A stretch of DNA of 21,434 nucleotides from a virus (Duplodnaviria; Heunggongvirae; Uroviricota; Caudoviricetes). Made by a program: the position numbers and the translations under genes. The stretch covers positions 1 to 21,434 of the IMG/VR virus record IMGVR_UViG_2695420514_000017; one strand, 5' to 3'. Below are positions 6,652 through 17,136 of the stretch, one piece after another (the stretch's first letter is position 1; every line of letters starts with the position of its first letter). The notes under the pieces were generated by a model, which worked only from the letters and a program-made list of their open reading frames with translations, did no database searches and was not told the origin of the DNA.

Positions 6652-6657
6652 TAATCA

Positions 6658-6680
6658 AGCCGGGTCACTCCGGCTTTTTG
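6658..6680 (+). terminator. Rho-independent terminator after the YjzC-like gene
   Basis: AGCCGG-gtcact-CCGGCT hairpin (6658-6675) followed by TTTT-G (6676-6680), 7 bp after the stop. The stop codon of the convergent minus-strand HExxH ORF lies inside the hairpin. Confidence 0.65.
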
Positions 6681-7030
6681 ATATGTCGCTCGCAGAACTC
6701 AACAAGCCTGCTCATTAAGTAGCAGTAAGTCTCGTTGGCTCTTCCTGGTTCAACATCAACACCGACCCTTGAGCAGATATCGAATGCCATGTGAGCGCAC
6801 TCATGGGCAATAGTAGATAGTTTGCCATTGAACACACCTATCACATGCAAAACACCATTCTCGCTGCTCATTGTATGAGACGCTCCGTTGGCATCCGAGT
6901 CCTGCACGTCCACGCCAAGTTTTTGATGCAGGCGTTGCCATTCTGGAAAGTCTCTGCAAAACACAATCGTACCGCTCTCAAAGAGCGGTACGAGCATCTT
7001 TGGTACGTTTCCAATGTTAACTTTTTTCAT
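6665..7030 (-). CDS. Hypothetical 121 aa protein with an HExxH motif (possible small zinc metallopeptidase-like or Zn-binding protein)
   Basis: From the ATG at 7028-7030 (AGGA 4 nt upstream on the minus strand): MKKVNIGNVPK...STIAHECAHMAFDICSRVGVDVEPGRANETYCYLMSRLVEF. HECAH with a downstream Glu and nearby Cys suggests metal binding. Sequence looks protein-like, unlike the overlapping N-terminal extension of the plus ORF. The ORF-track start at 7069 is a TTG. Confidence 0.5.
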   Translation of the reverse strand: MKKVNIGNVPKMLVPLFESGTIVFCRDFPEWQRLHQKLGVDVQDSDANGASHTMSSENGVLHVIGVFNGKLSTIAHECAHMAFDICSRVGVDVEPGRANETYCYLMSRLVEFCERHIKKPE

Positions 7031-12781: not shown

Positions 12782-14199
12782 TACTCAATCCTTATCTGGC
12801 AGCCAGACAGAGTTACAGGTGACTTCGTGATAACGCGCAATTTGAAGCCAACATTTTTCCTGATGCGCCCTACTCGCTTCCACAAAACGCGTTTGTCGTA
12901 AACGAACGGTTCATTCTGCTCAATCATCTGCTCACGCCCGTAATTGATGCCGTCAGTGGTTGCAGAGAGGAACAGGCGGTCAGCGTACTGCGCAACGCCA
13001 GTTGAAGATTCAACCTCAAGGTCGAACACCCGGGCGTTATCCGCTTTGAACAACGGAGTAAACAGCAGGTGTTCCTGCTGCTTGTCGTACTGGCTGCTGA
13101 TATCGAACTGCAATTTCCCGGTCACGGATTCCAGCTTATCGCCGCACGTTATCTGATTGCCTTCGTAAATGAAGTCGATAGCGCGGTACACATCGTCATA
13201 CAGACCTGTTTTCAGCACACACCATTGCGGACCATTGGCGCTTGAAGATGCGTCGTACACGAGAACATGGCGCGGAAGATGGATAATCAGCAACTCATGA
13301 GCATCAAACCGCAACGATTCCATCACGCCATCAGCCAGTTCATCAGCAGTGTAGGAGCGGAGGATCTTCTCAATGCTCGCACTGGCGATTGGTGACACCT
13401 GACCGGAGCCGATGATGTACACAGACGGCGCACCTGTTGCCGGATTGCTGATGAACGCATATGAATCAGAGAATGGCGTTTTGCAGTAAGTCCCGGCAAT
13501 GCCTTTCTGCACCATCAGCGATGGCTGTGCGACATACAAAGCGGCACCAACAGTGGTTGCACCTGTCAGGGAAAAATATTCAATCGTCGATGAACCAAAG
13601 CAGACGATGAAGTCTCGCCATGTTCCGATGCCGAGGATACCGTCCGGCTGCGATTCTGCGCGATATTGTGCGCTGTAACGGTCAGGATGCGATTCGTCTT
13701 CAAGGTCAGTGATAAACCATGAATCCGTGCCGTCTTTTGACCACGCATAACGCCCACGTAAGCGTGTAATGTCGCGGACTGAACCTAACTCATACTGAGT
13801 GAATCCGCTGTCTGTAGGCCAGTTTGAGACTGTTTTAACCGTGCCATCATAGCGATACTCGACCAGTTGACCATTAACGCCTACCGCCTGAGATGTTCGA
13901 CCATGCGCCATTGATACGCGACCACTTCCGGCAACATCACCGACCTCGCTTTCGCCCTTATACAACTTGCCACCGCAAACGCGATAAACAGCATTCTGCG
14001 CCATGTTGTACTCGACACCGCGCGATACACCATTCACATCAGAACGTTTGGCAATGCCCGGGAATGAGCGAAGATATCCGCTGCTGTTCAGGATTTCTTT
14101 GGGCGTAGCCAGCATATTCACTGGCAGATAGTCGATATAGTCGGCGTTTCGAAAGTCTTTGCCGACACCTTTCATAAGCGGAAGTTGCTGAATCGGCAT
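12781..14199 (-). CDS. Head-completion / tail-hub protein, P22 gp10 homolog
   Basis: 472 aa, the same length as P22 gp10, in the syntenic position after the gp4 homolog. Confidence 0.9.
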
Positions 14200-14208
14200 T
14201 TATTCACC

Positions 14209-14670
14209 TCACGTACTCGGATCATCTTTCTCGATGTAAAACCGATTCCACGTAAACGCGCTTTTGTTACCACTACCGCGAGGCATGTCATTTCGCCGCT
14301 CAAGTGGTGGTATTTTGGTTAAAGCGATGCAGATTGTCTGATATGCGCTGTCAGCAGCGGTAAGGAGAGCATCTGACGGCTGAATGACGTTATCCATGCA
14401 CACTTGCACAGCGAGTTTCAAAGCGACGCCATCATTTGCCCATGCAGGGATACCTGAATCATCGTCAGGTAACGGCATGATGCCGTTTTCTGTATCAGCA
14501 AACTGATATCCAAGCTCGATACCTTTCGCCTGCCATGCTGCCATCATGTCTTCGAGGTCATTAATGGCATCTTCTATTGCCTGAGGATCGGCATCTGTCA
14601 ACGTGGCATTGGAATACAGCCCGGCTTTTCGTAAAGCCTTAAGAACGAGATCACCCTTCGTTTTCGCCAT
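14209..14670 (-). CDS. Head-to-tail adaptor protein, P22 gp4 homolog
   Basis: 153 aa. MAKTKGDLVLKALRKAGLYSNATLTDADPQAIEDAINDLEDMMAAW aligns with the P22 gp4 N-terminus ([44 protein letters not shown]) as recalled. Confidence 0.9.
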   Translation of the reverse strand: MAKTKGDLVLKALRKAGLYSNATLTDADPQAIEDAINDLEDMMAAWQAKGIELGYQFADTENGIMPLPDDDSGIPAWANDGVALKLAVQVCMDNVIQPSDALLTAADSAYQTICIALTKIPPLERRNDMPRGSGNKSAFTWNRFYIEKDDPST

Positions 14671-14839
14671 CTTCTTCCGCCTTAGCCACTTTATGCTTCG
14701 TTGCGGTTTCTTCAGGAGTTTTTACCCAGCCTTTTTTCAGGTGAGATTTAACTTCTTCGTCATCAACAATGATGTAATCGACAGCAAACTGACCACAGGT
14801 GATCATGTTGCCAGGCTTATAGAGCATTGTTCGTGCCAT
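14651..14839 (-). CDS. Hypothetical small protein (62 aa) between coat and gp4
   Basis: ATG at 14837-14839 with GGAG 6 nt upstream on the minus strand, directly after the coat terminator: MARTMLYKPGNMITCGQFAVDYIIVDDEEVKSHLKKGWVKTPEE. Its 3' end overlaps the gp4 start by 20 bp. The ORF-track start at 14878 is a TTG inside the terminator. Confidence 0.4.
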   Translation of the reverse strand: MARTMLYKPGNMITCGQFAVDYIIVDDEEVKSHLKKGWVKTPEETATKHKVAKAEEDGENEG

Positions 14840-14850
14840 TGTCTTCTCCA

Positions 14851-14874
14851 AATAAAAATGGGGCCGAAGCCCCA
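14851..14874 (-). terminator. Rho-independent terminator immediately downstream of the coat gene
   Basis: GGGGC-cgaa-GCCCC hairpin (14860-14873). The plus-strand AATAAAAA at 14851-14858 gives a U-rich tract after the hairpin on the minus-strand transcript. It sits 6 bp past the coat stop. Confidence 0.6.
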
Positions 14875-14880
14875 CCAAAA

Positions 14881-16134
14881 TTACTGCCCGGCAATAACGA
14901 TGCCCGTATATTCAGGAACAAGTACAGAGCAACCGTACAGGGTGGTGAAACGCGCAGTGGTTACACCTTTGATGTGGTCGAAGGCGTAAGACATGATCAG
15001 CGTAGCGCCCTGCTCGGTGGTTGCTGTCATTACCTGTGGACCCTGACCAGTCGGGAACGCCAGTTTGCCGTACATCAGTTCAACAGAACCATCAGCCCAG
15101 AACAGGTTAGCCGGTGCGGCATTTTTGTTGAGAATGGTGATTGCTGCGCTACTTGCCGCATTAGCATCAACGTTTGCATATGGACGGCTGGCGACATCCG
15201 CGTTGTCAGGCGGCAGAATTTTCGGGGATATAGTTACTGTCGTTCCGCTAACTGCCAGAACGCGGAATACCTGCGGCTGCCCAGTGGTATCTTTGGTGAT
15301 CTGGTGTACGGAATTCACCCCTGCGATGGTAAACGCATCGCCAACCTGCAAACCTTCAGCAGATACCGTAATGGTCCCCTGTCGGTTATCCACTGGCATA
15401 TCGTTAGCATCTTTCGCTTCAACCTTGTGCGCAGGTGCTGCTGCCAGCGTAATGGGAGTTGCTGTACCCTTCGGAACACGACCGGAAATATCGGTCTTGT
15501 AGCTATCGAAGGACGCAACCGGAGGGATCTGCGCTTTTTCGTATGCTGTCAGGGTTGCGCCCTGAGCATAAGCACGGTGACCAAGCTCGCCAGCAAGGTC
15601 TTTATAGTTGAAGGGATTCCAGAAAGAGCGGCGGTTGATACCCTGTGGTACACCAATCGCCGTCATGGTGGCATCAATACCTGCCGCACAGTTCCACAAA
15701 TCACGGCCCTGTGAACCAGTGGTTGAGTCAGCCATTGTGATCACGTTAGTAGCACGCTGCGTGACCATGGAAATCAGGTCAGAGTCAATCTGTGCAGCAA
15801 GGCGCATACCTGCGGCGCGACCAGCTTCAGTTTTATGCTCAGGGTCACGCATTTCACGCGCATCCAGAGTGTACAGAATGTTTTTCGGCTCCTTGAACAC
15901 AGAAGGAACAAGGCGCTGAACCAGTGCTGTTGGCGTTTTGCCGCTGAGGTCTAGGCCTTCCTCAATGTTCATGTGGTAATGCTGCGGACGATACAGAACA
16001 TCACCTGCTCGCTGCATTGCTGTATCACCGGGACGGAATTTTTTAGCGTTACGGGAAACTACGCAGGCGGCCTCAAAGCCTTCAACGTAGTTTTCGAACA
16101 TGATTTCAAGGTCTTTTGCTAATTGGTTAGCCAT
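14881..16134 (-). CDS. Major capsid (coat) protein, P22 gp5-like
   Basis: 417 aa in the position after scaffold. Motifs such as ...NLFWADGSVELMYG resemble P22 coat (NVFWADDAIRIV) as recalled. GGAG RBS 8 nt upstream. Confidence 0.9.
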   Translation of the reverse strand: MANQLAKDLEIMFENYVEGFEAACVVSRNAKKFRPGDTAMQRAGDVLYRPQHYHMNIEEGLDLSGKTPTALVQRLVPSVFKEPKNILYTLDAREMRDPEHKTEAGRAAGMRLAAQIDSDLISMVTQRATNVITMADSTTGSQGRDLWNCAAGIDATMTAIGVPQGINRRSFWNPFNYKDLAGELGHRAYAQGATLTAYEKAQIPPVASFDSYKTDISGRVPKGTATPITLAAAPAHKVEAKDANDMPVDNRQGTITVSAEGLQVGDAFTIAGVNSVHQITKDTTGQPQVFRVLAVSGTTVTISPKILPPDNADVASRPYANVDANAASSAAITILNKNAAPANLFWADGSVELMYGKLAFPTGQGPQVMTATTEQGATLIMSYAFDHIKGVTTARFTTLYGCSVLVPEYTGIVIAGQ

Positions 16135-17046: not shown

Positions 17047-17136
17047 TTGTTACCCCTGTTTACTCGATGTTCAGCCCATCGGAAGGCAATAGGGTGCCAG
17101 GCCTCATAAAGACAGCCATTGCACGTTATGGGTTAA

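What the first reader, a model, noticed from the sequence alone, without database searches (positions are those of the whole stretch)
14651..14878. Intrinsic terminator directly after the coat gene, then a small ORF overlapping the gp4 start
A GGGGC-cgaa-GCCCC hairpin with a U-tract lies 6 bp after the coat stop inside the late operon. It would act as an attenuator, giving more coat/scaffold message than downstream head-completion message. A 62 aa ORF with a GGAG RBS begins right after it and overlaps the gp4 start by 20 bp in another frame; either it is a small late protein, or translation through it couples to gp4 initiation.
Basis: seen in the sequence. Interest (0 to 1): 0.35.

Follow-up and report, generated by a model that had tools for sequence, protein, structure and literature searches.

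The report
Known post-coat terminator hairpin and small gene
This is the terminator-like RNA hairpin and small conserved gene of unknown function that P22-like phages carry between the coat gene and the head-completion genes; both are real and under selection, but both are already annotated in HK620, Sf6 and P22, so the finding is ordinary.

Summary
On the minus strand, the coat gene (PF11651) ends at 14881. A GGGGC-UUCG-GCCCC hairpin (core 14873-14860) and a U-rich tract follow it. Next come a GGAG ribosome-binding site and a 62-aa ORF (14839-14651), which overlaps the gp4-homologue start (14670) by 20 nt.

The window is a CUS-3/Sf101/JEP4-type P22-like phage (95-98.5% identical). The same layout is already annotated in relatives: HK620 ("terminator tGP5" + hkbT), Sf6 ("t coat" + gene 6) and P22 ("RNA stem-loop" + orf69). 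A hairpin motif lies in the expected place upstream of the gp10 gene in 77 of 80 related IMG/VR loci. More distant genera have a different stem in the same place, with a few compensatory changes.

The small ORF is a real gene. dN/dS is 0.16-0.28 in frame and about 0.8-3.5 out of frame. It matches PHROG 1175, and 424 homologues are all named "hypothetical". It has no Pfam domain and no solved-structure match.

gp4 has its own conserved Shine-Dalgarno sequence, so translational coupling is not required. CUS-3 has a Q antiterminator upstream of the late operon, so the hairpin is at most a leaky terminator or an RNA 3'-end protector. The literature says the role of such terminators is "not known". 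Novelty: already known. Interest: low.

The parts
14881..16134 (-). Coat (major capsid) protein gene, 417 aa; stop codon TAA at 14883-14881
   Evidence: PF11651 P22_CoatProtein E=1.8e-75; PHROG 283 major head protein; ORF list.
14857..14876 (-). Terminator-type hairpin. Core GGGGC-UUCG-GCCCC at 14873-14860, a C(UUCG)G tetraloop; it can extend to 8 pairs.
   Evidence: Terminator scan hit. MFE -13.6 kcal/mol. Core invariant while flanks diverge. Same position annotated as terminator or stem-loop in HK620, Sf6 and P22. Modest covariation.
14850..14859 (-). U-rich tract AUUUUUAUUU following the hairpin
   Evidence: Sequence. Relatives have UCUUUUUUUUU or UUUUUUAU at the same place. The plus strand has no T-run after the hairpin, so it is unidirectional.
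14846..14849 (-). Shine-Dalgarno GGAG of the small ORF, 6 nt before the ATG
   Evidence: Sequence. GGAG or GAGG is kept in nearly all of the 13 lineages compared; Sf6 has AAGGA and C130_2 GAGGA.
14651..14839 (-). Small late gene, 62 aa. Family of P22 orf69 and epsilon34 gene 6; positional equivalent of Sf6 gene 6 and HK620 hkbT. Function unknown.
   Evidence: Translation. PHROG 1175 E=2.3e-28. dN/dS 0.16-0.28 in frame against 0.8-3.5 out of frame. 46 close and 424 profile homologues, all 'hypothetical'. Annotated CDS in CUS-3 and Sf101. AF2 model: beta-hairpin plus helix, pLDDT 75.5.
14677..14684 (-). Shine-Dalgarno-like UAAGGCGG for the gp4 homologue, embedded in the Lys-Ala codons of the small ORF
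   Evidence: Conserved upstream of the gp4 ATG in the CUS-3-type, Sf6, P22, epsilon34 and NM-3 lineages; duplex energy with the anti-SD -7.1 to -8.8 kcal/mol.
14209..14670 (-). gp4 homologue (head-tail adaptor / tail accessory factor), 153 aa; its start overlaps the small ORF by 20 nt
   Evidence: PF11650 P22_Tail-4 E=7e-41; PHROG 637 head-tail adaptor Ad3.

Best explanation
**Identity (about 0.9).** This is the conserved boundary between the procapsid module and the head-completion module of the P22-like late operon. It has two parts. The first is an intra-operon hairpin of the Rho-independent-terminator type, placed directly after the coat gene. It is the same element annotated tGP5 in HK620, 't coat' in Sf6 and 'RNA stem-loop' in P22. 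The second is a small, genuinely protein-coding, dispensable late gene: the P22 orf69 / epsilon34 gene 6 family, PHROG 1175. Its 3' end overlaps the gp4-homologue start.

**Mechanism (inferred, about 0.5).** Late transcription comes from the Q-dependent late promoter, and most polymerases read through the hairpin. The very stable C(UUCG)G hairpin with its U-tract then acts in two ways. It stops a minority of polymerases. It also protects from 3' exonucleases any RNA 3' end created there by termination or by decay from downstream. Either way, messages that end after the coat gene accumulate relative to those for gp4, gp10, gp26 and the ejection proteins. This fits the need for hundreds of coat and scaffold copies against about a dozen or fewer of the downstream proteins.

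The small ORF is translated from its own GGAG. gp4 initiates from its own UAAGG Shine-Dalgarno sequence inside the small ORF. The overlap is therefore ordinary tight gene packing, with at most a modest coupling contribution.
For: **Anatomy and gene identities:**

**Same layout already annotated:** HK620, Sf6, P22, CUS-3 and Sf101.

**Hairpin conservation.**
- The core is identical while both flanks diverge in E. coli prophage variants.
- Different stems with stable UUCG or GUAA loops and U-tails sit at the same site in IME10, phiSG1, APSE-1, sortkaff, IME_EC2 and C130_2.
- 77 of 80 IMG/VR loci carry a hairpin motif in the expected place upstream of gp10.
- Two stem pairs show double-sided changes; covariation score 0.26 against 0.10 in shuffles, with 0 of 500 shuffles as high.

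**No new transcription unit:** the scan found no promoter-like site on the sense strand between the hairpin and the small ORF.

**Upstream genes are not all set at RNA level:** terL and portal have weak Shine-Dalgarno sequences (-2.6 and -3.9 kcal/mol), so the low-copy upstream genes are plausibly held down at translation.

**Small ORF is coding:** dN/dS, PHROG 1175, family of 424 proteins, confident small fold.

**gp4 has its own conserved Shine-Dalgarno sequence and an unstructured start**.

**Literature:** partial termination is one of two roles proposed for this terminator in phage L (PMC8022706, section 24). The gene 6 homologue is not essential in P22 (PMC2629481).
Against: - No transcript, 3'-end or half-life data were available, so termination or stabilisation at this site is not shown.
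- CUS-3, 95% identical here, has a Q antiterminator gene upstream of the late operon. It is established that Q-modified RNA polymerase resists intrinsic terminators, so attenuation during lytic growth could be negligible.
- A terminator after the coat gene would raise terminase and portal mRNA as well as coat and scaffold mRNA, so it cannot set stoichiometry alone.
- The U-tract in this window is interrupted (AUUUUUAUUU) and weaker than in relatives.
- Single-sequence fold statistics are not significant.
- The covariation is modest, and stems in distant genera may be independent acquisitions rather than homologues.
Confidence: 0.6

Rival explanations
1. Fail-safe insulator. The hairpin is silent during Q-driven late transcription. 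It exists to stop polymerases that were not antiterminated, such as spurious starts inside the procapsid genes or leaky transcription in the lysogen, from reaching the head-completion, ejection and tailspike genes.
For: This is the alternative role proposed in the phage L genome paper (PMC8022706, section 24). A Q antiterminator gene lies upstream of the late operon in CUS-3. [quoted passage not shown] The hairpin has full terminator anatomy.
Against: It does not explain why the site is so consistently the coat stop codon rather than other gene junctions. Virulent relatives (sortkaff, IME_EC2, C130_2) keep a strong terminator at the same place. Expressing gp4 or gp10 in a lysogen has no obvious cost.
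Confidence: 0.28
2. True operon end. Late transcription stops after the coat gene, and gp4 and the genes after it are expressed from their own promoter.
For: In sortkaff and IME_EC2 the post-coat terminator is followed by a TATACT box that resembles a -10 element.
Against: The scan found no promoter-like site on the sense strand between the hairpin and the small ORF; only 20 nt (U-tract, GGAG and spacer) separate them. P22 is described as having a single late promoter (PMC8022706). The downstream genes are essential virion genes.
Confidence: 0.03
3. The small ORF is not a functional protein. It is only a stretch translated to deliver ribosomes to, or unfold, the gp4 start (translational coupling).
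For: The 3' overlap or abutment with the gp4 start is kept in every lineage: 20, 26, 17 or 1 nt of overlap, or a 2-nt gap. The C-terminal half is low-complexity and variable in length.
Against: The N-terminal 45 residues are conserved across genera, with invariant G, W and P and the pattern MLYKxG...IVD..E...L..GW..P. dN/dS is 0.16-0.28. The domain folds confidently. gp4 has its own conserved Shine-Dalgarno sequence and an unstructured start.
Confidence: 0.06
4. Chance hairpin and chance ORF with no function.
For: Fold z-score -0.79. Terminator-like matches are common: 28 found against 16 expected.
Against: Positional conservation in 77 of 80 loci and across genera. Invariant core with diverged flanks. 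Purifying selection on the ORF.
Confidence: 0.01

Closest known systems
HK620 'tGP5' terminator + hkbT, and Sf6 't coat' terminator + gene 6 (GenBank annotations NC_002730, NC_005344)
   Same: The layout is the same: coat stop, GC-rich hairpin with a 4-nt loop and U-tract, then a small ORF of about 61 aa whose 3' end overlaps the gp4-homologue start by 26 nt (20 nt here). The hairpin core GGGGC-NNNN-GCCCC is shared.
   Different: The Sf6 and HK620 small protein (MDRMSVFLAADNE...) is only 15-18% identical to the window's protein, so homology is uncertain. The loop is UUAC rather than UUCG.
P22 'RNA stem-loop' + orf69, and epsilon34 / L / ST64T gene 6 (orf186)
   Same: Same position. The hairpin is GGGGC-UGCG/UUCG-GCCCC. 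The small protein shares the N-terminal motif (xIYKPG..WG...V[IV]D..[ED]...[HY][LV].DGW..HP) and overlaps gene 4 by 17 nt. It is reported as of unknown role and non-essential in P22 (PMC2629481).
   Different: Lengths are 69 or 186 aa. The epsilon34/L form carries an inserted WDGH domain, PF25311. These proteins have a KPGRKPKA-type basic motif that the window's 62-aa form lacks.
Terminators placed directly after the major capsid gene in other phages: T7 T-phi after gene 10, and the filamentous-phage terminator after gene VIII (from my own knowledge, not tested here)
   Same: A partly efficient intrinsic terminator right after the most abundantly needed structural gene, giving more message for that gene than for downstream genes.
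   Different: Those operate on T7 RNA polymerase or on unmodified host polymerase. Here the polymerase is expected to be Q-antiterminated, so efficiency is probably much lower.
C(UUCG)G hairpins in phage T4 intercistronic regions, and intercistronic stabiliser hairpins such as REP elements in malE-malF (from my own knowledge, not tested here)
   Same: An unusually stable tetraloop hairpin between cistrons that can block 3' exonucleases and so raise upstream-segment mRNA levels.
   Different: No decay or processing data exist for this element. It also has a U-tract, which pure stabilisers do not need.

Membership tests
Rho-independent (intrinsic) terminator | GC-rich stem-loop on the transcribed strand | tested here: met
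   5 G-C pairs plus 3 extra pairs, 4-nt UUCG loop, -13.6 kcal/mol.
Rho-independent (intrinsic) terminator | U-rich tract immediately 3' of the stem | tested here: met
   AUUUUUAUUU, 8 U in 10, interrupted by A. Relatives have 7-9 U. There is no T-run on the opposite strand.
Rho-independent (intrinsic) terminator | Produces RNA 3' ends (termination) in vivo or in vitro | not testable with these tools
   No transcript data were available. The Q antiterminator upstream in CUS-3 predicts low efficiency.
P22-like post-coat terminator (HK620 tGP5 / Sf6 t coat / P22 stem-loop) | Lies between the stop of a PF11651 coat gene and the small ORF / PF11650 gp4 homologue | tested here: met
   77 of 80 related loci.
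P22-like post-coat terminator (HK620 tGP5 / Sf6 t coat / P22 stem-loop) | Alignable hairpin core with pairing preserved | tested here: met
   A5: 93.5% of cells paired; 2 pairs with compensatory changes; slid controls 32-74% paired.
P22 orf69 / epsilon34 gene 6 small-protein family (PHROG 1175) | Significant profile match | tested here: met
   PHROG 1175 E=2.3e-28; PHROG 3769 E=1.1e-5. The motif is shared with P22 orf69, epsilon34 gp6, IME10, C130_2 and RSK1 ORF6.
P22 orf69 / epsilon34 gene 6 small-protein family (PHROG 1175) | Coding-type selection in this frame | tested here: met
   dN/dS 0.16-0.28 (window against divergent prophages), compared with 0.8-3.5 in the other two frames.
P22 orf69 / epsilon34 gene 6 small-protein family (PHROG 1175) | Homology to Sf6 gene 6 / HK620 hkbT | tested here: inconclusive
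   15-18% identity in A1, with a similar hydrophobic/Gly pattern and the same position. No direct profile comparison was done.
P22 orf69 / epsilon34 gene 6 small-protein family (PHROG 1175) | The protein is made during infection | not testable with these tools
   No Ribo-seq or proteome data were found. The supplement of the phage L virion proteome paper is not held.
Translational coupling (termination-reinitiation) pair | Upstream stop close to or overlapping the downstream start | tested here: met
   20-nt overlap here; 26, 17 or 1 nt of overlap, or a 2-nt gap, in relatives.
Translational coupling (termination-reinitiation) pair | Downstream start lacks its own Shine-Dalgarno sequence or is sequestered in structure | tested here: not met
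   Conserved UAAGGCGG 9 nt upstream of the ATG, -7.5 kcal/mol, as good as the other late genes. Fold z-score +0.51.
Moron (independently expressed insert: promoter-gene-terminator) | Own promoter upstream and own terminator downstream of the small gene | tested here: not met
   The scan found no promoter-like site on the sense strand between hairpin and ATG. The gene runs into gp4 with no terminator after it.

The most novel reading that the evidence does not exclude
In every Lederbergvirus lineage examined the stem begins only about 2-7 nt after the coat stop codon. A ribosome terminating on the coat gene would therefore cover the 5' arm of the hairpin. The hairpin could be a ribosome-gated attenuator: it would terminate only on transcripts whose coat cistron is not being closely translated. 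That would tie transcription of the head-completion genes to coat translation. In addition, the N-terminal third of the small protein lies in the same mosaic patch as the coat allele in one comparison, so it could be a coat-specific assembly or regulatory factor rather than a passenger.
Probability: 0.08. Interest if true: 0.45.

Novelty: already known. Interest (0 to 1): 0.1.

Why it matters
It matters little as a discovery. Phage genomicists have annotated this terminator and this small ORF since 2001-2004, and the window is 95-98.5% identical to sequenced phages in which the ORF is already an annotated CDS.

Two questions do remain open, and both could be answered with standard experiments:
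- What does an intrinsic terminator do inside a Q-antiterminated late operon? The literature says the roles "are not known".
- What does the conserved orf69 / gene 6 protein do?

The answers would clarify how P22-like phages set the roughly 400:12 coat-to-adaptor ratio.

Tried and rejected
- **Rfam scan** of 14100-15400 at E<=1: only a sub-threshold MicA-like hit on the plus strand at 14252-14316 (23 bits against a gathering score of 41), taken as chance.
- **Single-sequence fold statistics:** not informative for the hairpin (z -0.79) or for the gp4 start (z +0.51).
- **Pfam and NCBIfam** on the 62-aa protein: nothing.
- **tblastn of the 62-aa protein against phage genomes:** only the 11 near-identical records.
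- **AlphaFold model and Foldseek:** no PDB match with E<1. BFVD returned only uncharacterised phage proteins, so no functional lead.
- **The search for related loci with a gp4 alignment:** failed for lack of a conserved block. The gp10 protein was used instead.
- **Literature searches.** No data on transcripts across the hairpin in P22-like phages were found. The searches for 'orf69' and 'hkbT' were unproductive. Casjens & Thuman-Commike 2011 and Adams et al. 1985 are not held. Prophage Pas sRNAs are described mainly next to Q and the lysis genes; nothing in the text read places one at the coat 3' end.
- **The TTG-started 75-aa version of the ORF:** rejected. Its extension is the hairpin itself, and the spacer length varies by non-multiples of 3.
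- **The hairpin as a recombination junction between modules:** rejected. The mosaic junction lies inside the small ORF, not at the hairpin.

Full report
**What is in the sequence.** The late operon of this window runs on the minus strand. The 417-aa ORF at 16134-14881 is a P22-type coat protein (PF11651, E=1.8e-75; PHROG 283). Its TAA stop is at 14883-14881. Reading on, the minus strand is UUUUGGU-GGGGC-UUCG-GCCCC-AUUUUUAUUU-GGAG-AAGACA-AUG.
- The hairpin core is 14873-14860 and can extend to eight pairs at 14876-14857. The terminator scan reports it, and it folds at -13.6 kcal/mol.
- The ATG at 14839 opens a 62-aa ORF that ends with TGA at 14653-14651.
- The next gene, 14670-14209, is a P22 gp4-type head-tail adaptor (PF11650, E=7e-41; PHROG 637). 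Its ATG lies 20 nt inside the small ORF, in another frame.

Two corrections are minor. The core stem begins 7 nt after the stop (4 nt for the extended stem), not 6.

**Is it more than chance?** From this sequence alone the case is weak. The fold z-score against dinucleotide shuffles is -0.79. Terminator-like matches are frequent, with 28 found where 16 +/- 4.2 are expected over 16 kb on both strands. The strength comes from comparison.
- The window is 95-98.5% identical here to phages JEP4, Kapi1, Sf101, Huey and CUS-3.
- In more divergent E. coli prophage variants the 14-nt core GGGGCUUCGGCCCC is unchanged. The 5' flank (UUUUGGU, UCCAA or UCACAA), the U-tract (AUUUUUAUUU or UCUUUUUUUUU) and the spacer length (41, 40 or 39 nt) all differ.
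- In 80 IMG/VR loci retrieved with the neighbouring gp10 protein, 77 carry a hairpin motif in the expected place upstream of the gp10 gene. One of the other three contigs lacks that region.
- In other lineages and genera the same site holds a hairpin with a different stem or loop, each followed by a U-run:
  - P22: GGGGC-UGCG-GCCCC
  - Sf6: GGGGC-UUAC-GCCCC
  - IME10: GGGAGC-UUCG-GCUCCC
  - phiSG1: GGGGC-GUAA-GCCCC
  - APSE-1: GGGCGC-UUUA-GUGCCC
  - sortkaff: GGGGGCC-UUUGU-GGCCCCC
  - IME_EC2: GGGGAGCC-AUU-GGCUCCUC
- On an 11-sequence alignment, 93.5% of cells pair and two pairs show double-sided changes. The covariation score is 0.26 against 0.10 in shuffles (0 of 500 as high). Slid controls pair at 32-74%.

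The loops are mostly the exceptionally stable UUCG, with one GNRA loop. That points to selection for stability.

**It is already annotated.**
- HK620 (NC_002730) carries a regulatory feature at this site: [quoted passage not shown]. It is followed by hkbT and gene 4.
- Sf6 (NC_005344) has [quoted passage not shown], followed by gene 6 and gene 7.
- P22-pbi (AF527608) has "RNA stem-loop", then orf69, then gene 4.
- CUS-3 and Sf101 annotate the identical 62-aa CDS.
- The phage L genome paper describes a putative terminator at the end of the procapsid module, inside the single-promoter late operon. [quoted passage not shown] It offers two roles: partial termination, or stopping spurious transcription that lacks gp23/gp24 antitermination (PMC8022706).
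[quoted passage not shown] 1991).

**The small ORF is a real gene.** Over the first 44 codons, comparing the window with divergent prophage alleles, dN/dS is 0.16-0.28 in the ORF frame. It is about 0.8-3.5 in the other two frames, which also contain stop codons.
- The protein matches PHROG 1175 (E=2.3e-28, function unknown).
- It has 46 close homologues and 424 profile homologues among enterobacterial prophages. All are named "hypothetical" and none has a Pfam domain.
- The conserved part is the N-terminal 45 residues, with the pattern MLYKxG....G....IVD..E...L..GW..P. This is shared with P22 orf69, epsilon34 gp6, IME10, C130_2 and Ralstonia phage RSK1 ORF6.
- The rest is a variable linker and a charged tail.
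- AlphaFold gives a confident beta-hairpin plus helix for residues 3-35 (mean pLDDT 75.5).
- Foldseek finds nothing in the PDB and only uncharacterised phage proteins in BFVD.

The function therefore remains unknown.

**Translational coupling.** The 3' overlap or abutment with gp4 is kept everywhere: 20, 26, 17 or 1 nt of overlap, or a 2-nt gap. However, the gp4 start has its own Shine-Dalgarno-like UAAGGCGG at 14684-14677. This is conserved in the CUS-3-type, Sf6, P22, epsilon34 and NM-3 lineages. Its predicted anti-SD pairing (-7.5 kcal/mol) is as good as for the other late genes. The region has no significant structure (z +0.51). Coupling is therefore not required. It cannot be excluded as a minor contribution.

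**How the hairpin most likely works.** Two facts bear on this.
- In CUS-3 a Q antiterminator gene lies upstream of the lysis and late genes.
- The scan found no promoter-like site on the sense strand between the hairpin and the small ORF.

The essential downstream genes must therefore be transcribed through the hairpin, by polymerase that is expected to resist intrinsic terminators. That last point is established knowledge of lambda Q and P22 gp23. The hairpin cannot be an efficient stop.

My preferred reading (about 0.5) is a leaky terminator that also caps RNA 3' ends. This would enrich messages ending after the coat gene relative to the messages for the low-copy head-completion and ejection proteins. 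The upstream low-copy genes, terL and portal, would be held down by their weak Shine-Dalgarno sequences.

The main rival (about 0.3) is a fail-safe that acts only on polymerases that were not antiterminated. Both readings are already in the literature, and neither can be tested with sequence tools.

**Verdict.** The novelty category is "already known", and interest is low. The open biological question is why P22-like phages keep an intrinsic terminator inside an antiterminated operon and what the orf69 / gene 6 protein does. That question is real but long recognised.

Noticed in passing
window ~16250 to ~14790 (minus strand), compared with locus L016: Against an E. coli prophage (L016), the scaffold gene is 98-100% identical and gp4 is 98-100% identical. 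The coat gene, the hairpin flanks and roughly the first 15-20 codons of the small ORF are only 58-82% identical. This is a coat-allele mosaic patch whose downstream junction lies inside the small ORF.
   Followed up: partly
IMG/VR loci L025, L031, L033, L043 and others; alignment A3: The IME10-type homologues of the small ORF range from 74 to 98 aa in steps of 2 aa. The cause is copy-number variation of a Pro-Glu repeat in the linker.
   Followed up: partly
L005 1448-2008 (epsilon34 gene 6); 195-199-aa forms in IMG/VR loci: Long forms of the small gene keep the N-terminal motif. The epsilon34 form carries an inserted WDGH domain (PF25311, E=1.7e-40); the 195-199-aa IMG/VR forms were not scanned. 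The gene seems to tolerate insertions, like an accessory slot.
   Followed up: partly
window 14677-14684 (minus strand): The gp4 Shine-Dalgarno sequence UAAGGCGG coincides with the Lys-Ala codons of the conserved '...KPKA' C-terminal motif of the small-ORF family. Part of that protein-level conservation may therefore reflect the embedded ribosome-binding site.
   Followed up: partly
L019 3141-3866: In one metagenomic relative, an HNH/NUMOD4 homing-endonuclease-like gene (194 aa) sits between a 34-aa gp10 N-terminal fragment and a full-length gp10 gene.
   Followed up: no
L010 about 1357-1446 (sortkaff) and L011 about 1364-1452 (IME_EC2): In these more distant relatives the post-coat terminator, with a U7-8 tract, is followed about 5-10 nt later by a shared TATACT box. 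This suggests a terminator-promoter junction rather than an intra-operon hairpin.
   Followed up: no
window 6967-6993 (minus strand) and 6657-6676 (both strands): Downstream of the gp16 homologue there is a 12-pair terminator-like hairpin on the late-operon strand, and a further hairpin that scores as terminator-like on both strands. Late transcription would have to pass these to reach the tailspike gene at 4241-2001.
   Followed up: no
window 17047-17136 (minus strand): The 90-nt gap between the portal and scaffold genes is the largest in the late operon. It shows no significant RNA structure (z +0.98).
   Followed up: partly
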